DNA of 64,000 nt from Acidimicrobiia bacterium (lineage in GTDB: Bacteria; Actinomycetota; Acidimicrobiia; Spongiisociales; ZC4RG35), in contig OZ244034.1 in the NCBI GenBank assembly GCA_965215185.1, positions 2,624,001 through 2,688,000 of the forward strand, read 5' to 3'. Shown here piece by piece: positions 16,550 through 31,395 of this stretch. Below the pieces are notes generated by a model. It made no database searches. It was not told the DNA's origin and worked only from the letters and a program-made list of their open reading frames with translations. The first letter of the stretch is position 1. Each line of letters begins with the position of its first letter. Made by a program: the position numbers and the translations under genes.

Positions 16550-18376
16550 ATGGGATCGCACAAAATGAAGAGATGGGTCGTAGTCCTGCTGGCGTTTGCC
16601 CTGGTGGCGAGCGCCTGCGCAGCAGACGATGACACCGTCGACACAACAGCCCCCGCCCCCGCCCCTACGACCACAACCACGGCGGTGATGGACGATGGCG
16701 GTGATGAAGCCCCCGCCCCCACGACCACAACCACGGCGGTGATGGACGATGGCGGTGATGAAGCCCCCGCCCCCACGACCACAACCACGGCGGTGATGGA
16801 CGATGACAGTACCACAGAAACGACTGCTGCGAGTACTGACGGCGGGGTGGAAGCCCCGGACACACTCAATATTCATGTTGGCGAGTTCGCCACTTTGAAC
16901 CCTTTCCTCTCCAGCGGCATCGGCCGCGGGACGGTTACAGCCGTGATCTACCAGCCGCTGGTTTTCATAGGACCTGACAACACCGTTCATGGTGGAGCTG
17001 CGGAGTCCTGGGAGATAAGCGGCGATGGTCTCACGATCACCTTCCATCTGCGAGATGACCTGATTTGGAGCGATGGTGAGCCTTTCACGTCCGAAGATGT
17101 CCTTTGGAGCATCTCGAAGTATCTCACCGCCGACCTGAGCCTCTGGGCCAACCGGATCGGTGGCGTCCTCGGTCAGGGTGAAGGGGATGTGCCCGCGGGT
17201 CTGAGCGCCCCCGACGACCACACTTTTGTGGTCCAGCTCGCCGGATCCAATCCGCCATGGCTGAGTATTCTGGCGGCGCAGGGTTTCGTGATCTCGATGC
17301 TCCCCGAGCATGTGCTGGGTGGCATGTCCAACGAGGAACTCGCTACAACGGAGTACTTCAACGAGGCACCTGTCACGCTCGGTCCTTACAAGTTCGTTCG
17401 TTGGGAACGAGACCAGTTTGTGGAGCTGGAAGCCGACCCGAATTGGCCTGCTTCGGTCGCGTTCGACAGGGTGAGATTCAGCCTTCTCCAGACCGATGTG
17501 GCAACCGCTCAACTCGAGACAGAAGACCTGCACCTTTCAACCCAGATCGCGCCTCTTGATGTAGCGCGGCTCCAAGCGTTGGACAACGTCGTGATCCAGA
17601 CGGTTACCGGAGTCTGGCCCGAGGTTCTGCAGTTCTTCGTGGATCAGCCGGAACTCGCCGACCCGCGTGTTCGCCAGGCAATGGCATACGCGCTGGATCT
17701 CGAAGGGCTCTGCCGGGAGGTGCTGGTGGGCTACTGCACGGTCACCAGGGACCAGGTTCGCCTTCTGGCGCCTGCCTGGGCGATTCCCACTGAAGGCATG
17801 ATCGTGTATGAGTACAACCCCGACCGCGCTCGCGAGCTACTCGCCGAAGCCGGATGGGATTCCGGTACCAAGTTGACCCTGCTCAACATCGGGGGTCAGG
17901 ACCGTATCCGTAACACCGAGTCGGTAATCATCCAGGCAAACTTTGCCGCGGTGGGCATCAGCTTGAACGTCCTGGCTACAGACGTCGGAACGCTGCTCGA
18001 CATCGGACGCAATGCGGATCGCCGCGGAGAGATCCATATGTTCCTCAACCGTGGCGCTCACTTTTCTGCCGACCCGAATCAGGTATCCCCGTACAACAGT
18101 TGTCACACCCACTATCCGAACGGCGCAAACCTGTCGTGGTTTTGCCGCGACGACCTTGATGCGCTCTGGGAGCGAGGGCTTCAGGTGGCCTCGCCCGAGG
18201 AGCGTGCGCCGATTTACCACGAGGCGTTCAGGATCCTCAACGCTGACATCGACTCGTTGAACCTTTACTGGCCCGAGACGATCGTGGCTCACGCAGGTGC
18301 CCTGAGGGGTGTGCAACCGGTCGGCCAGCCGGAGCACGTCACTTGGAACATCGCGGACTGGACATGGGGAGGTTGA
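16550..18376 (+). CDS. Family-5 ABC substrate-binding lipoprotein with acidic Thr-rich tether
   Basis: Lipobox ASAC; WSDGEPFTSEDV; GPYKF; DPRVRQA. Confidence 0.92.
   Translation: MGSHKMKRWVVVLLAFALVASACAADDDTVDTTAPAPAPTTTTTAVMDDGGDEAPAPTTTTTAVMDDGGDEAPAPTTTTTAVMDDDSTTETTAASTDGGVEAPDTLNIHVGEFATLNPFLSSGIGRGTVTAVIYQPLVFIGPDNTVHGGAAESWEISGDGLTITFHLRDDLIWSDGEPFTSEDVLWSISKYLTADLSLWANRIGGVLGQGEGDVPAGLSAPDDHTFVVQLAGSNPPWLSILAAQGFVISMLPEHVLGGMSNEELATTEYFNEAPVTLGPYKFVRWERDQFVELEADPNWPASVAFDRVRFSLLQTDVATAQLETEDLHLSTQIAPLDVARLQALDNVVIQTVTGVWPEVLQFFVDQPELADPRVRQAMAYALDLEGLCREVLVGYCTVTRDQVRLLAPAWAIPTEGMIVYEYNPDRARELLAEAGWDSGTKLTLLNIGGQDRIRNTESVIIQANFAAVGISLNVLATDVGTLLDIGRNADRRGEIHMFLNRGAHFSADPNQVSPYNSCHTHYPNGANLSWFCRDDLDALWERGLQVASPEERAPIYHEAFRILNADIDSLNLYWPETIVAHAGALRGVQPVGQPEHVTWNIADWTWGG
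16655..16805 (+). repeat. 54-bp tandem repeat (about 2.8 copies) encoding APAPTTTTTAVMDDGGDE
   Basis: Near-identical units read directly from the sequence. Confidence 0.92.
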
Positions 18377-21457: not shown

Positions 21458-22743
21458 GGAGATCTATCACCCAAGGCGCTGGATGCCTTGGAGTCCAACA
21501 CTTTCGAGTCGCTGCTGTCGGGAGCTTTTACGAGTACACCGCTTTTCCACACATGCGTGATCGAAGAGGCATCTTCGAGGACGGTGATCTTCTCCAAGGG
21601 ATTGGCTGACACCGCTATCACGTCTGCCCGAGCGCCTCTCTCGAGCACACCTTCCGATTCGGCCTGGGCGCCTACAGTGAGGGGCCCGTGTGCAGTGGCG
21701 GCCTGGATCGCCGCTCGCTGAGTCATGCCCAACTCAACGAGAAGGGAGAGTTCTCTGCCGTTGCGGCCCCACATGTCACCACTGGTGATGATGTCGGTGC
21801 CTGCTGCGATCTTTACGCCGGCCGCCAGAGCATGCTGTATGGCCTCGGCGCCCCGACGGTAAGTGATCTCCAGTTTCCGTCGGGCGAAATCAGGTAACTC
21901 CACGAGCGAGTCCTCGGACAGCAACGCTTCGCCTATGAAACGCGTCGAGACCAGGATCGTGCCGGAGTCCGCCATAGCTCGAGCACTTTCGGAGTCGAGG
22001 AAGGTCCCATGCTCAATGGTCCGAACCCCCGCCCTGACGGCCGCCATAATGCCGGCTTTGCCATGGCAGTGAGCCGCCACTACACGATCAGCCCGCCCTG
22101 CCTCCTCGACTATGGCTGCCAATTCCTCGGGAGAGAACTGCGGGTGTTCCGGCTTGTCCAGTTCGCTGACCACTCCACCGGTTGCGCATACCTTGATGAC
22201 TCTGGCGCCTTTCCTCAGCTGCCTGCGCACTCCCCTGAGACATTCCGGCACCCCATCGCAGAGTTCGAGGTCGGGCAGTGACCGGGACGACGCAACGAAG
22301 TCGAGCGGGAGGGAGTGGAGATCTCCATGCCCACCTGTCATCGAAAGCATCGCTCCCGAGCCATAGATATGGGGGCCGACCAGTATTCCTTCCTCAACGG
22401 CTGCCGCCAGATCAACTCCTAGGCCGCCGACTTCGCGAAGGCTGGTGAAGCCGGCCTTCAACGCCTGTCTGGCGTCCTCGGCGCCGCGCAAACCACGTTT
22501 GACAATTGGTTCCGTCACCAGTTCTCTGAGGTTTACCGACCTTATTCCAAAGAAATGGCAGTGGCTGTCCCAGAGGCCGGGCATGAGCACGGGCACCCTG
22601 GTCGTCTCATCTCCGGGTGGGGCGGTGGCCTGGGGCCCCGCATAGACGATTCGATCGCCCTTGATGACCAAAGACCCGTCTGTTATGGGCGCGTCCGTGC
22701 CGTGGATCAGGGTTTCGGCGTCGATTCGCTGCGAAACACCCAT
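21454..22743 (-). CDS. Metal-dependent amidohydrolase (Xaa-Pro dipeptidase-like)
   Basis: PGLWDSHCH, GGHGD, IKVCATGG, AAHCHG, IEHG, AGTD. Confidence 0.92.
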   Translation of the reverse strand: MGVSQRIDAETLIHGTDAPITDGSLVIKGDRIVYAGPQATAPPGDETTRVPVLMPGLWDSHCHFFGIRSVNLRELVTEPIVKRGLRGAEDARQALKAGFTSLREVGGLGVDLAAAVEEGILVGPHIYGSGAMLSMTGGHGDLHSLPLDFVASSRSLPDLELCDGVPECLRGVRRQLRKGARVIKVCATGGVVSELDKPEHPQFSPEELAAIVEEAGRADRVVAAHCHGKAGIMAAVRAGVRTIEHGTFLDSESARAMADSGTILVSTRFIGEALLSEDSLVELPDFARRKLEITYRRGAEAIQHALAAGVKIAAGTDIITSGDMWGRNGRELSLLVELGMTQRAAIQAATAHGPLTVGAQAESEGVLERGARADVIAVSANPLEKITVLEDASSITHVWKSGVLVKAPDSSDSKVLDSKASSALGDRSP

Positions 22744-26736: not shown

Positions 26737-26842
26737 TGGGATTGTCTTCTCAGAAGCCCTGGGCGATGCACCATTTCATGACCGCGGCGGTGCGCTGTTT
26801 GACACGGTGGGCGGTTTCAGGTTCTGGTGCCAGATAGGGGTG
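26737..26842 (-). pseudogene. Internal fragment of a second P4-type integrase
   Basis: ETAHRVKQRTAAVMKWCIAQGF*EDNP, matching 28222-28325; in-frame stop. Confidence 0.85.
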
Positions 26843-27557: not shown

Positions 27558-28769
27558 CTACAACGTGCTACCAATCGAGCTGTCTGTCCCAATCGGTGCC
27601 ATGAAAAGGATTGAGGCTTCGCGGATGTTTAGGTAGCGGCTCCAGTTTTCCATCAGTTGGCGGCGTCTTTCCAGTAGGTCGGTTCGAGCGTAGGCTTTTT
27701 CTACAGCGTTTCGGATTTCGTGACCGAGGGCCCGTTCCGCGACTTCACGGCTAACACCGGTTTCTCCGCACCAGTCCCGAAACGAGCTTCTCATCCCGTG
27801 TGGCACACAACCCACATTGTTCTCTTTGCACAGTTTGCTCATAGTGGCGTTACTAGGCGGCCGTCCGGTAGGCGAGGGAAAAACCAGGCCATCCCCGCCG
27901 GACAGTTGGTGTGCGGTGTGGAGAACCGCCAGAGCCCCGCTGCTCAAAGGCACCCGGTGTATTTGCTGTGTTTTGGTGTGCTCGGCAGGGATTGTCCAGG
28001 TTGCTGTGGTGAGATCAATTTCTGTCCATGTGGCGTGTCTGACTTCACCGCTTCTGGTGGCGGTAAGGGTCAGGAATTTGAAAGCGGCGATCGTCGCCCA
28101 ATGGGCATCTGTTGTTTCGACGGTTCGAATGGCTGCGCCGACCTGGCTGTGGGGTAGGGCCTTCATGTGTTGGGGTCGTTGGGTGTTGGAACCTAGGGCG
28201 GCGGTGATACGGTCGTCGGCTGGGTTGTTCTCTCGGAACCCCTGGGCGATGCACCATTTCATCACCGCGGCGATCCGCTGTTTCACCCGGCGGGCCGTTT
28301 CGGGTTTTGGGTGCCATATGGGGGTGAGACAAGCCATGACGTTGGCGGTCGTGATTAGGTCCACCCGCCTTTTCCCAAGGTGAGGATAGGCATAGGTGTG
28401 GAGGGTTGACCGCCAGTGCTCTTCGGACCTGCCACCCGGTTTCCACTTGGCGGCGTGAAGCCGGATTACCTGTTCGGTCGCCTGGCGAAAGGTAGGTGCC
28501 TTGCGGGGGCGGGGGTTGCGGCCTTCTGCGATGGCTTGTCGGTTCCGGAGAGCCCGCCGGCGGGCTTCGGCGAGGGTGACTGCCGGGTAGCTACCCAGCC
28601 CCAGGTTGGTGTATCTGCCGTTGATCTGGTTTCGTTGCGCCCAGGTTTTGGAGAGTCGCCCCTGGATGTTGGTTGGTTTGACCAACAGGCTCAGTCCATG
28701 GCCGCCTCGGCCGTTGCCATAGCGTCCGGGTTGGGTCACTGTCCTAACGAAAGATGCTGTGAGTGTTGG
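27558..28769 (-). pseudogene. P4-like tyrosine integrase; first four codons (30040-30051) displaced by IS110
   Basis: Arm-binding N-domain (GRYGNGRGGHGLSLLV..LGLGSYPAVTLAEAR), R (TRSGE), HGMR, LGH, Y (AYAR). Confidence 0.9.
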
Positions 28770-28776
28770 TGAGCTC

Positions 28777-29805
28777 CTATGTCAAAATCGGGGTTGGTTT
28801 TGGTGGTTGGAGGTGGGTCCAGATGCGGTCTGAGATTCGGCGTTTGAGGACGCGTATGGCGTCTCTGTGGGTCTTTCCTCGGGTGATGAGTTTCTGGTAG
28901 TAGCGGCGGCCTTCGCTGTCTGCGCGGGCGATCTGGGTCAAAGCGGCGGTGTGGATGGCCCGGTTTAGTTGGCGGTTCCCACCCCGGTTGAGTCGATGGC
29001 GTACTACTCGTCCGCTGCTGGCTTCGATGGGTGCGGTGCCGTTGGCCATGGCGAACTTGTCTTTGGTCGCATAGCGGTGTGGGTTGCCCACCTCCGAAAG
29101 GATGGTGGCAGCGACCAGTACACCCACCCCGTGAATGTCTAGTAGACGGGTTTCGGATTGGTCGACCAGTGTTTTGATCTCGGCGGTGAGTTGTTTGATC
29201 TCGGTGTCCAGTTGTCGCAGTCTTCGGATGCGTTGTTTGGCTACCCGCCCGTGGGGGGTGGTGTCCCGCCAACACAGTTTCATGGCCTGGTCGAGGGCTT
29301 TTCGGGTGGTGAGCCGGGGAATGTTCTGGTGGTAGCCTGGTCGGAGTTTCCCCAGGTCGGCGTGGAGCCGGTTGGCCTGGGCGGTGCGGTCTTCTACCAG
29401 TTCACGGCGGTATGAGACCAGCACACGGAGGTCTTCGGTGTCCTCCCAAAACGTCGGCGGGGCGAGCGTGTTGTCTCGGAGAGCGACCCTGGCGATCACC
29501 CAAGCGTCGACCTGGTCGGTTTTGGTCTGGGTACGGCCCCGGCGCCGGACCTGGGCGGTCAGCTGCGGTGGAACCTCCCGGATGTCCAGACCAGCGGCCA
29601 TAGCGGCGACCGCGGCTGGGCGGCCGAACGTGCCGGACCCCTCGACCGCTACCCTGGCGGCGTTGGTGGTGTGAGCCCAATCTATGAGTTGACGGTGACC
29701 AGTAGGGGTGTTAGCGATGGTCCGGTACTCCAGGGCGGTGCCCAGGTGGTCTACCAAACAGGCAGAAAGGGTATCCTTGTGCGAGTCGATCCCGATAACG
29801 AACAT
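28777..29805 (-). CDS. IS110-family transposase / bridge recombinase
   Basis: DEDD RuvC (GIDSHK, VEG, KTDQVDA), PIEASSG catalytic Ser, GNRQLNRA; GGAGG RBS. Confidence 0.96.
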   Translation of the reverse strand: MFVIGIDSHKDTLSACLVDHLGTALEYRTIANTPTGHRQLIDWAHTTNAARVAVEGSGTFGRPAAVAAMAAGLDIREVPPQLTAQVRRRGRTQTKTDQVDAWVIARVALRDNTLAPPTFWEDTEDLRVLVSYRRELVEDRTAQANRLHADLGKLRPGYHQNIPRLTTRKALDQAMKLCWRDTTPHGRVAKQRIRRLRQLDTEIKQLTAEIKTLVDQSETRLLDIHGVGVLVAATILSEVGNPHRYATKDKFAMANGTAPIEASSGRVVRHRLNRGGNRQLNRAIHTAALTQIARADSEGRRYYQKLITRGKTHRDAIRVLKRRISDRIWTHLQPPKPTPILT

Positions 29806-29819
29806 GGTTCAATCCTCCA

Positions 29820-30020
29820 ATTTCGGGGGTTTGCGGGAGCGGCAGAAGGCTCGGCGAAGCGCATCCATGCGTCGAAACAACACCCCCACAGGGGGCAGAT
29901 ACAAGTCACGCTCCTATCAAGCGACAACACCGAGCGGGCAACCGGTGGGGAGACACTCACTAACTAAGCCACCACAATGGGGCAGGGTCGTTTGGAGTCA
30001 TCCCCACCGGCACTGCCACA
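29820..30020 (-). ncRNA. Putative IS110 bridge RNA
   Basis: Guides AAACGACC and GTTAGTG inside a 10-bp stem match the target flanks; ATAGGAGC and ACGCATG match the element ends; RNA boundaries approximate. Confidence 0.82.
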
Positions 30021-30158
30021 CCCCAACATATAACACGCATGGTCGTTTCACCCCTGCTTCTCCCTTTCGGCTAACCCAGAGAAGGTCCGGTACCGCCGAT
30101 TACTCCGATGGGTTACTTCGATAGTTATCAACATTGCAATGCGATTAGGTGCAACCCT

Positions 30159-30252
30159 ATGGGACTGTCTGGAACTACCTGGGACACCAATACCCCGTTG
30201 ACCTGGGCAAATATGAACCACATGGGACACTATGCGCCTATATAGGACACTA
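30159..30252 (+). repeat. GGGACAC-type direct repeats (candidate integrase arm sites)
   Basis: ATGGGACTG 30159, CTGGGACACCA 30179, ATGGGACACTA 30222, ATAGGACACTA 30242. Confidence 0.5.
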
Positions 30253-30262
30253 AACCCGCGGA

Positions 30263-30774
30263 CGTCCAGGTAAGGCAACCCTTCCTGCCAGAAGTTCTCG
30301 TTGCGTACGATTTCAACCTGCTGGTTGCGTTCCCATTCCACGAACTTGAAGGGACCGGTTCCGATCGGCGTCTCGTTCAGGTCGATGTCGGGATCCCGCG
30401 GCGAGATGTACACATCCACCAGGGTGCTGGCCAGGATGCGGTCGGGCTCGCCGAGTCGGATCTCCACGGTCATGTCATCGACCGCTACGGTCCCGACTAC
30501 CCGGGTCAGGAGAGAAGATGTCCGTCCAGACTCAGGCTCCTGCGCCCTGCCCATGGATACCACCACGTCTTCGGCGCCAAAGGGAGAACCGTCGTGGAAG
30601 GTCACGCCTTCCCGGAGGTTAAAGGTCCAGGTGGTGGCCAGCGAGGGAGACGGTCCAGGTGGTGGCCAGCGAGGGAACTATCTCATAGGTCTCCAGGTCG
30701 AACTCCACCAGGGTGTCATACATGTTGGTGATGATGTTGCGGTCGTTAGTCGAACCGAATCGGTTGGGATGCAG
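30263..30774 (-). pseudogene. N-proximal fragment of the split SBP gene
   Basis: LHPNRFGSTNDRNIITNMYDTLVEF...FHDGS...GTGPFKF...QEGLPYLD; frameshift at 30624-30676; signal peptide missing. Confidence 0.9.
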
Positions 30775-31395
30775 TACCTACCAGTCGCTGCAGGTCATCG
30801 CCGACGCCCAAGCAGACGGCGCCGAACCGTTTGATTTGATGATCTGCGACGTAGCCCATCGAACCACCGGGGTTCATAAGAAAGCCCGGATCACGGTGTC
30901 TTCGTGGTTGTTGCCCCACGACCAGACGATTCTCCAAGCCGACCGGCGGCTGTACATGACCGCCACGCCTCGGCTTTACAGCGCCAATGTCAAAGAAAAA
31001 GCCAAAGAGCGGCAGGCGGCTATCTATTCGATGGACAACGAAGCCACCTACGGGCCTGAGATTTACAAGATGAGCTTCAAAAAAGCCGTAGACGACGGTT
31101 TCTTGTCGGACTATGAAGTAGCCGTCGTCGCGGTGTCTGACAGTCTGTTCGCCAATCTGGCGGGCGACTTTGTCTAGGAGCATGAAGAAACCGGGGTGAA
31201 CGTCGAGGATGTGGTGAAACTCCTCGGGTGTTGGGACGCTCTGGCCGATCCCGACCACCCGTGGCACGAATGGTCGGGTCACCGGGCAGGTCAACACTCC
31301 CCACGCCGCCCAGCGGGCCATCGCCTTCTCCAACACCATCAAGAGTTCGATGAATTTGGAGAAGTGGTGGCCGGACATCATCAGCCGACTAGGGC
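30773..31395 (+). pseudogene. Fragment of an SF2 helicase of Type ISP restriction-modification type
   Basis: STYQS, ICDVAHRTTG (degenerate DEAH), MTATPRLY, LSDY, RAIAFSNTIKSS; stop at 31175 and frameshift near 31255. Confidence 0.75.

What the first reader, a model, noticed from the sequence alone, without database searches (positions are those of the whole stretch)
29806..30039. IS110 bridge RNA whose four guides match this element's own target and donor
Seen (minus strand): CCGGTGGGGA...TCCCCACCGG (30001-30010 with 29942-29951) forms a 10-bp stem enclosing two segments. AAACGACC (29986-29993) equals the left target flank gAAACGACCa. GTTAGTG (29958-29964) is the reverse complement of core plus right flank CACCAAC, with 1 mismatch. 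A downstream region holds ATAGGAGC (29910-29917), identical to the element's right end, and ACGCATG (29866-29872), the reverse complement of core plus left end CATGCGT. Known: IS110 recombinases such as IS621 use a bispecific bridge RNA with target- and donor-binding loops in this order. Inference: this is a complete natural programmable recombinase with a CA core, target about AAACGAC-CA-CYAAC and donor TAGGAGCT-CA-TGCGT. The left donor guide match sits about 2 nt further from the core than the left target guide match, so the architecture may be a variant. Whether this ortholog is already catalogued cannot be told here.
Basis: partly seen in the sequence, partly recalled or inferred. Interest (0 to 1): 0.88.

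Follow-up and report, generated by a model that had tools for sequence, protein, structure and literature searches.

The report
Bridge-RNA insertion sequence (IS110 family)
This is a working-looking copy of an IS110-type jumping gene whose upstream RNA carries short guide segments that match both its own ends and the places where it has landed; the mechanism has been known since 2024, so this is a new example and not a new kind of system.

Summary
Window 30041..28770 (minus strand) holds a 1268-nt IS110-group element bounded by a CA core. The genome has 3 identical copies, and an empty paralogous site carries a single CA.

The 234-nt left end folds into two stem/internal-loop modules. The loop segments match the left target flank, the right target flank, the right end and the left end in the strand pattern described for the IS621 bridge RNA, handshake dinucleotides included.

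In 17 related insertions the target guides track the flanks: 0 of 20,000 permutations reach the observed match, for either side. The stems covary in 26 more distant homologues.

The "offset" left donor guide is a position-7 mismatch plus two wobble pairs over the core.

It differs from IS621 in three ways:
- The core is CA, not CT.
- The bottom-strand guides do not Watson-Crick pair with the second core base.
- One RNA has inserted in two left-flank registers 1 nt apart.

The window copy cuts off the first codons of a P4-like integrase gene. It is a new member of a known kind. Expression and activity are untested.

The parts
30042..30051 (-). Left target flank. GTG (30051-30049) is the start codon of the interrupted integrase gene; AAACGAC (30048-30042) is the left target (LT).
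   Evidence: The empty paralogue and an intact 386-aa paralogue start VRRP../VKRP.. at this GTG.
30040..30041 (-). Core dinucleotide CA, left copy.
   Evidence: CA is the only sequence shared by both junctions in 3 of 3 copies. It occurs once in the empty site.
29806..30039 (-). Left end (LE), 234 nt, non-coding; encodes the bridge RNA.
   Evidence: Covariance model R1, built from it and 12 homologues, finds 24 of 29 more distant loci.
30027..30032 (-). -10-like hexamer TATATG. It would lie 17 nt downstream of the right-end TTGACA in the circular junction.
   Evidence: Read. It matches 4 of 6 positions and lacks T at position 6. The scan finds no promoter in the integrated state. This is an inference by analogy with IS621.
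29997..30011 (-). Target-binding loop (TBL), basal stem, 5' arm.
   Evidence: All 11 pairs of this helix show changes on both sides among distant homologues.
29985..29993 (-). Left target guide (LTG) AAACGACCC, followed by U29984. Same sense as the left flank, so it would pair with the bottom strand.
   Evidence: Hypervariable columns 50-59 of alignment A1.
29968..29983 (-). TBL distal stem-loop.
   Evidence: helix 3: 3 of 5 pairs with changes on both sides.
29958..29964 (-). Right target guide (RTG) GUUAG plus core complement UG. Complementary to the top strand of CA-CTAAC.
29956..29957 (-). TBL handshake guide AG, complementary to the donor's CT just left of the core.
   Evidence: 16 of 16 elements with a resolved right end. 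The concept comes from passages of PMC11208158.
29941..29954 (-). TBL basal stem, 3' arm.
29928..29934 (-). Donor-binding loop (DBL) basal stem, 5' arm CUCGGUG. It pairs with 29856-29850.
   Evidence: Helix 4: 4 of 4 modelled pairs show changes on both sides.
29907..29917 (-). Left donor guide (LDG) AUAGGAGC-G-UG. Same sense as the right end ATAGGAGC-T-CA.
29881..29898 (-). DBL distal hairpin.
   Evidence: also flagged as terminator-like at a chance-level count. It varies in sequence and length among homologues.
29866..29872 (-). Right donor guide (RDG) ACGCA plus core complement UG.
   Evidence: It covaries with the core (UG to CG where the core is CG).
29864..29865 (-). DBL handshake guide GA.
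   Evidence: Its first base pairs with target position 7 in 22 of 22 sites. Its second base pairs with position 6 in 6 of 22.
29850..29856 (-). DBL basal stem, 3' arm CGCCGAG.
28777..29805 (-). Recombinase gene, 342 aa, including the stop codon TAG.
   Evidence: Pfam PF01548 (6.2e-31) and PF02371 (1.8e-20). NCBIfam NF033542, 210.8 bits against a cut-off of 140. IS621 structure 8wt6, E = 9e-20.
28780..28785 (-). TTGACA, a -35-like box at the right end.
   Evidence: TTGACA was seen in 15 of 17 right ends printed (L018 has TTGCCA, L030 is cut off; L029 keeps TTGAC before its sequence diverges) and in 9 of 10 printed (not L040). Counted by eye.
28772..28779 (-). Last 8 nt of the right end (left donor, TAGGAGCT).
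28770..28771 (-). Core dinucleotide CA, right copy.
28765..28769 (-). Right target (RT) CCAAC.
   Evidence: 4 of 5 paired with the RTG.
27558..28739 (-). Remainder of the interrupted P4-like integrase gene (context, not part of the element).
   Evidence: Pfam Arm-DNA-bind_3, Phage_int_M, Phage_integrase. Read upstream in its frame, it meets a stop inside the IS.

Best explanation
This is an active or recently active IS110-group insertion sequence, 1268 nt plus a CA core. Its left end encodes a two-loop bridge RNA.

By analogy with IS621, the element would excise as a circle. Joining the right and left ends would place a TTGACA box 17 nt upstream of an A/T-rich hexamer, and the bridge RNA would be transcribed from the left end.

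The first internal loop would hold the target. [quoted passage not shown] The second loop would hold the donor junction in the same way (LDG with the right end, RDG with CA plus the left end). Handshake dinucleotides pair with the other DNA after top-strand exchange. A DEDD/Ser recombinase tetramer then exchanges strands at the CA core.

Shown here: the element's ends and core, the guide matches, guide/flank covariation, stem covariation and the protein family. Inferred, not shown: transcription, circle formation, catalysis and programmability.
For: (1) Three copies identical over 1268 of 1268 nt, each with CA at both junctions. An empty paralogous site has a single CA.
(2) Recombinase family. 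The catalytic-Ser position aligns (ASSG against ESGS in the 8wt6 alignment).
(3) Four guide matches at the expected loop positions. All four together were reached in 0 of 5000 shuffles.
(4) Alignment of 13 left ends: the scaffold is nearly invariant, and the variable columns fall exactly on the LTG and RTG.
(5) Guide/flank matching. LT: observed 0.895 against a permuted mean of 0.602, 0 of 20,000 permutations reach it, 17 insertions. RT (5 positions): 4.0 against 2.29, 0 of 20,000, 15 insertions.
(6) Where the core is CG (L028, L029), the RTG and RDG core complements change from UG to CG. Where the right end has GAAGC (seen in L028; L029's right end is not resolved), the LDG reads GAAGC as well.
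(7) Handshake guides: TBL AG matches donor CT in 16 of 16 elements. The first DBL base pairs with target position 7 in 22 of 22 sites, and changes from G to U where that position changes from C to A.
(8) Model R1 finds the RNA next to 24 of 29 more distant recombinase genes. On those 26 matches, 95.2% of cells are paired against 71.6% in shuffles, 20 of 23 pairs show changes on both sides, and 0 of 500 shuffles reach any measure.
(9) In 18 of those 26, the LTG loop has an exact match of 7 nt or more in the 90 nt upstream of the RNA; where I checked by eye, it lay at the apparent left-end boundary (no shuffle control).
(10) Within this genome, the three insertion sites are 3 of the 4 sites that lie within one non-core mismatch of the guide-predicted targets.
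Against: - No direct evidence of transcription of this copy, of a circular junction or of recombination.
- The laid runs are contigs only and showed no circle or empty-site joint.
- The junction -10 hexamer matches only 4 of 6 and fails the scan's rule.
- The RTG of this copy has a mismatch to its own flank and is not significant alone.
- The window copy's left flank fits the LTG only if it is read 1 nt out of the register used by copy 3 and most relatives.
- The related elements are kin and share some guides, so the permutation figures overstate independence.
- Rfam gave no hit.
Confidence: 0.93

Rival explanations
1. The left end is only a 5' UTR or promoter region. The matches to the ends are protein-binding subterminal repeats, and the matches to the flanks are chance or a consequence of protein-determined target preference.
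For: The donor-side segments (ATAGGAGC, ACGCATG) are almost invariant among close relatives, as protein sites could be. The RTG match in this one copy is at chance level.
Against: - The LTG and RTG columns are the most variable in the left end, and they change together with the flanks.
- The stems that frame them covary.
- The strand pattern (5' segment in the same sense as the DNA, 3' segment complementary, core and handshake positions) is the one described for bridge RNAs.
Confidence: 0.03
2. It is a genuine bridge-RNA element but no longer mobile: a decayed or domesticated copy.
For: No circle or empty-site reads were seen. There is no consensus promoter in the integrated state.
Against: - Three copies are identical over 1268 of 1268 nt. 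The flanks of copies 1 and 2 are only 93-95% identical on the integrase side (200-500 nt) and 90% on the left-end side (200 nt). That points to recent independent insertions.
- The ORF is intact and the catalytic motifs align.
- Weak bridge-RNA expression from integrated IS621 loci is stated in the abstract of PMC13626964, so a weak promoter in the integrated state is expected.
Confidence: 0.04

Closest known systems
IS621 bridge recombinase and bridge RNA (E. coli; Durrant et al. 2024, PMC11208160; Hiraizumi et al. 2024, PMC11208158; PDB 8wt6)
   Same: - Two-domain DEDD/Tnp recombinase.
- Long left end encoding an RNA with a target-binding loop and then a donor-binding loop.
- The 5' segment of each loop has the sense of the left DNA half (pairs with the bottom strand); the 3' segment is complementary to core plus 5 nt of the right half.
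- Handshake dinucleotides lie 3' of the core complements.
- 2-nt core, no target duplication.
- A -35 box in the right end.
   Different: - Only distant protein similarity (E = 9e-20).
- Core CA instead of CT. The passage read calls the second T 'almost invariant' among IS621 relatives.
- The LTG ends in CU directly against the distal stem, so its second core base faces a mismatch. The LDG has UG (wobbles) opposite CA.
- The LT is 8 nt in the usual register.
- The IS621 RNA itself was not compared by sequence here.
IS622 / ISCro4 (PDB 9t56; preprint 10.1101/2025.05.14.653916, passages read)
   Same: Same protein family (E = 3.2e-17) and the same guide and handshake scheme as described in the passages read.
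   Different: CT core there. It is a close relative of IS621, not of this element.
Near-identical and related elements in Acidimicrobiia and other metagenome-assembled genomes (loci L017-L031, 58-97% protein identity)
   Same: Same scaffold, the same ends (TGCGTGT...ATAGGAGCT) and, in most, the same CA core. They differ mainly in the LTG, RTG and distal hairpins.
   Different: Different guide sets and insertion sites. L028 and L029 have a CG core.
IS1111-group elements with a right-end RNA (seekRNA / bridge RNA in the right end)
   Same: Same recombinase family and the same RNA-guided principle (passages of PMC11208160).
   Different: There the RNA lies in a long right end with longer subterminal inverted repeats. 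Here the right end is 8 nt past the stop codon's first base and the RNA is in the left end, so this is the IS110 group and not IS1111.

Membership tests
IS110-family bridge recombinase element (IS110 group) | Recombinase with an N-terminal DEDD RuvC-like domain and a C-terminal Tnp domain carrying the catalytic Ser | tested here: met
   PF01548 6.2e-31 and PF02371 1.8e-20. NF033542 'IS110 family RNA-guided transposase', 210.8 bits against a cut-off of 140. In the alignment to 8wt6, the Ser of ASSG aligns with the Ser of ESGS.
IS110-family bridge recombinase element (IS110 group) | No terminal inverted repeats or target duplication; a 2-nt core at both junctions and once in the empty site | tested here: met
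   3 of 3 copies have CA at both junctions. The empty paralogue has one CA.
IS110-family bridge recombinase element (IS110 group) | Long non-coding left end, very short right end, RNA encoded in the left end | tested here: met
   The left end is 234 nt. The stop codon lies within the last 8 nt of the element.
Bridge RNA | Two stem/internal-loop modules supported by covariation | tested here: met
   95.2% of cells paired, 20 of 23 pairs with changes on both sides, 0 of 500 shuffles reach. That alignment was fitted to the model, which favours the structure.
Bridge RNA | Target loop: the 5' segment matches the left flank in the same sense, the 3' segment is complementary to core plus right flank, and both covary with insertion sites | tested here: met
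   (0 of 20,000 permutations for each side). for distant homologues (no control).
Bridge RNA | Donor loop: the 5' segment matches the right end, the 3' segment is complementary to core plus left end, and both covary | tested here: met
   Matches. Covariation is limited to the few variable positions: the core (A to G with U to C, in 2 of the 13 aligned sequences, L028 and L029) and the right end GGAGC to GAAGC with the LDG (L028).
Bridge RNA | Handshake guides complementary to positions 6-7 of the non-cognate DNA | tested here: met
   TBL: 16 of 16. DBL: position 7 in 22 of 22, position 6 in 6 of 22.
Bridge RNA | Promoter completed by the right-end/left-end junction of the circle | tested here: inconclusive
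   TTGACA (28785-28780), a 17-nt spacer, then TATATG (30032-30027). The -10 matches 4 of 6 and lacks T6. No promoter is found in the integrated state.
Bridge RNA | The RNA is made | tested here: inconclusive
   Two RNA-library contigs (188 and 227 nt, one study) lie on 29793-29976 and carry the target loop of a close relative (L017 type). Contigs cannot show a transcript, and DNA carry-over is not excluded.
Bridge RNA | Guide-dependent, reprogrammable recombination | not testable with these tools
   Needs a recombination assay.
IS621-like subgroup | CT core paired by all four guides | tested here: not met
   The core is CA. The RTG and RDG pair with it (UG). The LTG has CU or CC, and the LDG has UG, opposite CA.
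IS1111 group (right-end RNA) | Long right end carrying the RNA, with long subterminal inverted repeats | tested here: not met
   The right end is 8 nt and the RNA is in the left end.

The most novel reading that the evidence does not exclude
This Acidimicrobiia clade is a natural bridge system with a non-CT core (CA or CG). Its two bottom-strand guides do not need Watson-Crick pairing with the second core base, and its left-target pairing tolerates a 1-nt slip. The same, sequence-identical RNA inserted twice independently at AAACGAC-CA (7 nt of left target) and once at AAATGACC-CA (8 nt). If this is functional and not merely tolerated, it would relax two design rules taken from IS621: the CT core, and a fixed 7+2 left-guide register.
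Probability: 0.3. Interest if true: 0.55.

Novelty: new member of a known kind. Interest (0 to 1): 0.35.

Why it matters
It confirms from sequence alone that a tool-free reader can recognise a complete bridge-RNA element. It adds a well-delimited natural example from an uncultured Acidimicrobiia lineage: exact ends, an empty site, three insertion sites and about 40 homologues with differing guides.

For the field, the useful details are the CA core, the unpaired or wobble second core position in the LTG and LDG, and the natural use of two left-flank registers by one RNA. All three bear on off-target prediction and on which sites can be targeted.

Biologically, the element has twice cut off the start of integrase genes of resident integrative elements, so one mobile element is inactivating another. 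None of this changes the known mechanism.

Tried and rejected
- Rfam 15 at E <= 1 over 28500-30400: only a chance-level serC leader hit inside the ORF. No bridge-RNA family matched. I cannot say whether Rfam holds one.
- blastn ('distant') of the element against the plasmid collection: no match.
- A 3-nt core (YCA), considered to explain the two left-flank registers and the LDG offset. Rejected because it predicts junctions with T/C swapped in about half of the insertions, and none of the roughly 17 junctions printed shows this.
- A scoring slip: the RT score was mis-indexed by one base and gave a null result (18,168 and 19,720 of 20,000 permutations at or above the observed value). It was corrected, and the RT figures should be ignored.
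- Read laying: all four runs are contigs. No circle junction and no empty-site joint appeared; the one joint listed (skipping 296 nt inside the ORF, side 27, one contig) is uninformative.
- Promoter scan: nothing in the integrated state. The junction was not submitted to any tool because joined sequence may not be typed.
- Short ATA/TAT subterminal repeat (mentioned for IS110s in the passages): ATA...TAT is present in this copy, but the TAT is not kept in relatives (L017 type), so I make no claim.
- Terminator-like hairpin at 29897-29881: 3 found against 1.4 expected in the region. It is the DBL distal hairpin.
- Preprint 10.1101/2025.10.25.684509: a term search for core, mismatch, register and bulge returned nothing.
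- Two paper searches listed no paper on Acidimicrobiia bridge RNAs or CA cores. That covers only those two searches of the held library.
- Supplementary tables of Durrant et al. and Perry et al., which list predicted orthologues, are closed. This element or a near relative may already be listed there.
- The tally (52 of 401 genomes) includes two genomes flagged unpublished (G275, G212). No locus or other claim rests on them.

Full report
**Observation.** On the minus strand the window holds an ORF of 342 aa (29805..28777). It is preceded by 234 nt of non-coding sequence and followed almost at once by the end of a repeat.
- The stem is GCCGGUGGGGAUGAC (30011-29997) with GUCUCCCCACCGGU (29954-29941).
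- AAACGACC lies at 29993-29986.
- GUUAGUG lies at 29964-29958.
- AUAGGAGC lies at 29917-29910.
- ACGCAUG lies at 29872-29866.

The whole left end folds to -97.2 kcal/mol (z = -3.17; 0 of 200 shuffles as stable).

**The element and its ends.** A search of the window's own 3.12-Mb genome found three full copies. Between the junction dinucleotides they are identical over 1268 of 1268 nt.
- Copy 2 lies in a paralogue of the same flanking sequence.
- Copy 3 lies in unrelated DNA, which fixes the ends.
- Each copy is bounded by CA on both sides.
- A third paralogue of the flank is uninterrupted and reads ...GTGAGACGAC-CA-CCAACACTCAC with a single CA.

So insertion is precise, with a 2-nt core and no other duplication. 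The flanks of copies 1 and 2 are only 93-95% identical on the integrase side (200-500 nt) and 90% on the left-end side (200 nt), while the element has no difference. I read this as two independent, recent insertions into the same position of diverged paralogues. Gene conversion among copies is not excluded.

**The protein.**
- Pfam gives DEDD_Tnp_IS110 (6.2e-31) and Transposase_20 (1.8e-20).
- NCBIfam gives NF033542 'IS110 family RNA-guided transposase' at 210.8 bits against a cut-off of 140.
- The only solved relatives are the IS621 (8wt6, E = 9e-20) and ISCro4 (9t56, E = 3.2e-17) recombinases. The serine of the Tnp domain aligns.

**The RNA against what is known.** I read passages and section 8 of Durrant et al. 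2024 (PMC11208160) and passages of Hiraizumi et al. 2024 (PMC11208158). They state the following.
- The 5' side of each internal loop pairs with the bottom strand over 8-9 nt.
- The 3' side pairs with the top strand.
- The core is included in all four pairings.
- Two nucleotides 3' of each core complement (handshake guides) pair with positions 6-7 of the other DNA after strand exchange.
- The promoter's -35 box lies in the right end.

The element here fits each point.
- Target loop: UCC / AAACGACCC / U / distal hairpin / UUA / GUUAG-UG-AG.
- Donor loop: AUAGGAGC-G-UG / distal hairpin / ACGCA-UG-GA.
- The TBL handshake AG is the complement of the donor's CT in 16 of 16 elements with a resolved right end.
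- The first base of the DBL handshake pairs with target position 7 in 22 of 22 sites. It switches from G to U in the elements whose targets have A there. The second base pairs with position 6 in 6 of 22.

**Is it more than chance?** Within this copy alone, three of the four matches are each rare in dinucleotide shuffles of the left end (98, 17 and 56 of 5000). All four together never occur (0 of 5000). The RTG match of this copy has a mismatch and is not significant alone. The 8-nt value that test recorded for the right flank is a different, probably fortuitous complementarity (29960-29953 with 28766-28759; 477 of 5000).

**Homologues.** A scan of one genome per species returned 20 loci.
- I used the 15 that hold a left end (L017-L031, 58-97% protein identity, mostly Acidimicrobiia metagenome-assembled genomes).
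- I left out L032 (only the 3' part of the gene and the right end), L035 and L036 (short fragments), and L033 and L034 (23-26% identity).

Thirteen distinct left ends were aligned; L019, L021 and L024 were dropped because their RNAs duplicate L018, L020 and L017. The scaffold is almost invariant, and variation is concentrated in the LTG, the RTG and the distal hairpins.

The guides follow the flanks. Examples:

| Locus | Left flank (DNA) | LTG (RNA) |
|---|---|---|
| L018 | AAAGTTCC-CA | AAAGUUCC-CU |
| L020 | AAATGAAC-CA | AAAUGAAC-CU |
| L023 | AAACCCCC-CA | AAACCCCC-CU |
| L031 | CGATAGGA-CA | CGAUAGGA-CA |

- In L031 the right flank CA-ACCTA also matches the RTG.
- L028 has a CG core; its RTG and RDG carry CG, and both its right end and its LDG read GAAGC.

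Permuting flanks among elements (WIN2 dropped because it is the same site type as WIN1) gave these results:

| Side | Observed | Permuted mean | Permutations reaching observed | Insertions |
|---|---|---|---|---|
| LT (share matched) | 0.895 | 0.602 | 0 of 20,000 | 17 |
| RT (5 positions) | 4.0 | 2.29 | 0 of 20,000 | 15 |

The elements are kin and several share guides, so these figures are not true probabilities.

**Wider family.** The protein was found at E <= 1e-40 in 52 of 401 genomes of the class. That count includes the window's genome and two genomes flagged unpublished, on which nothing else rests.

A covariance model of the RNA (R1) matched 26 places in 24 of 29 fetched loci. On that alignment:
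- 95.2% of cells are paired, against 71.6% in shuffles.
- 20 of 23 pairs show changes on both sides.
- Slid controls fall to 32-54% paired.

The alignment is fitted to the model, which favours the structure. In 18 of the 26 matches, the LTG loop has an exact match of 7 nt or more in the 90 nt upstream of the RNA, and where I checked by eye it lay at the apparent left-end boundary (no control run).

In 15 of the 26, that match ends in CT, and the LTG's CU sits directly against the distal stem. So the common geometry of this RNA family is LT-CU-stem with a CT core.

**What differs from IS621.**

1. The window's clade has a CA core (CG in L028, L029 and L040). The RTG and RDG carry the matching UG or CG. 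The LTG keeps CU, so its second base faces a mismatch. The LDG reads G-UG opposite T-CA: a position-7 mismatch, then U:G and G:T wobbles to the bottom strand. A passage notes that LD position 7 is the mismatch-tolerant position in IS621.

2. There are two left-flank registers.
   - Copy 3, L017-L024, L026, L027 and L030 place 8 flank bases plus the first core base on the nine LTG bases.
   - Copies 1 and 2, L025, L028, L029 and L031 place 7 plus the first core base on the first eight.
   - For the window's own RNA, both registers occur with the identical RNA: AAACGAC-CA twice and AAATGACC-CA once.
   - The run of C at the 3' end of the LTG would allow a 1-nt slip or bulge. That is an inference.

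**Specificity within the genome.** I scanned the genome for the guide-predicted targets, requiring the CA core.
- 7-nt register: one unoccupied site within one mismatch (at 776744), besides the two occupied ones.
- 8-nt register: no unoccupied site within one mismatch, besides copy 3.
- The unoccupied paralogous integrase starts differ by an LT change (AGACGAC, at 896969) or by RT changes (TCAAC at 21461, GCAAC at 2504924).

**Context.** The window copy sits after the tenth base of a P4-like integrase gene (GTG AAA CGA C|CA). An intact paralogue (386 aa) and the empty paralogue both start at that GTG. In the window, reading the integrase frame upstream runs into a stop inside the element. The insertion therefore separates the integrase from its start codon and upstream signals. 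The surrounding 26.6-31.7 kb is a patchwork of gene fragments.

**Expression.** The scan finds no sigma-70 promoter in the integrated state. In a circle, TTGACA (28785-28780) would lie 17 nt from TATATG (30032-30027), a 4-of-6 match.

Two metatranscriptome-library contigs from one study (188 and 227 nt) lie on 29793-29976. One continues into the target loop of the L017-type relative. This is at most a weak hint that such RNAs are present in RNA libraries. It does not concern this exact copy, and contigs cannot show transcripts.

**Verdict.** This is a genuine bridge-RNA IS110 element, correctly read by the first stage. It is a new member of a known kind, with small architectural peculiarities that are worth an experiment but do not change the known mechanism.

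Noticed in passing
window 30050-30260 (minus strand) and 30048-30605: Upstream of the IS there are about 210 nt with repeated AGTGTCC(C/T)A-like motifs. Beyond them lies an SBP_bac_5 gene fragment (profile positions 28-149 of 368) that breaks off near 30260. It looks like the attachment-site end of an integrase-bearing island inserted into a solute-binding-protein gene.
   Followed up: partly
window 26739-26827 vs 28222-28310: An 89-nt stretch is 84% identical to part of the integrase gene, so a second, decayed integrase fragment lies just downstream. The region 26.6-31.7 kb also holds a ResIII fragment (30713-31177).
   Followed up: no
G000:C1 near 21461, 896969, 984k, 2504924 and window 30051: There are five paralogous P4-like integrase gene starts in one 3.1-Mb genome. 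Two are occupied by this IS, one is intact (386 aa), and two are broken (stops after 175 and 57 aa).
   Followed up: partly
L029 ~1290-1330 and L040 (downstream block): In two different relatives the sequence after ...TTTGAC does not continue as the usual right end (ATAGGAGCT). Both continue as TGTGAGAATA.... This may be an alternative or extended right end, or a shared insertion.
   Followed up: no
L039 junctions: The left junction has TG and the right junction has CG at the core, so the first core base differs between the two junctions of one element. This is consistent with a target and donor that differed at that base.
   Followed up: no
G000:C1:51401-51514 (-) and 2584226-2584377 (+); also 3102985-3103998 and 1282447-1283454: There are two weak further matches to the RNA model (E = 2.7e-6 and 8.7e-5) and two other IS110-family recombinase genes at 36-37% identity. 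The genome therefore carries other bridge-type elements.
   Followed up: no
window 16655-16816: Three tandem copies of a 54-nt unit (98% and 85% identical to the first) lie inside a 608-aa ORF (16550..18376).
   Followed up: no
L003 flanks (G000:C1 ~1645.7-1650.0 kb): Copy 3 lies between small ORFs. Two of them look like nucleotidyltransferase-type proteins by eye (motif ...GS.ARR......D.DLL.V.P); this was not tested against any family library.
   Followed up: no
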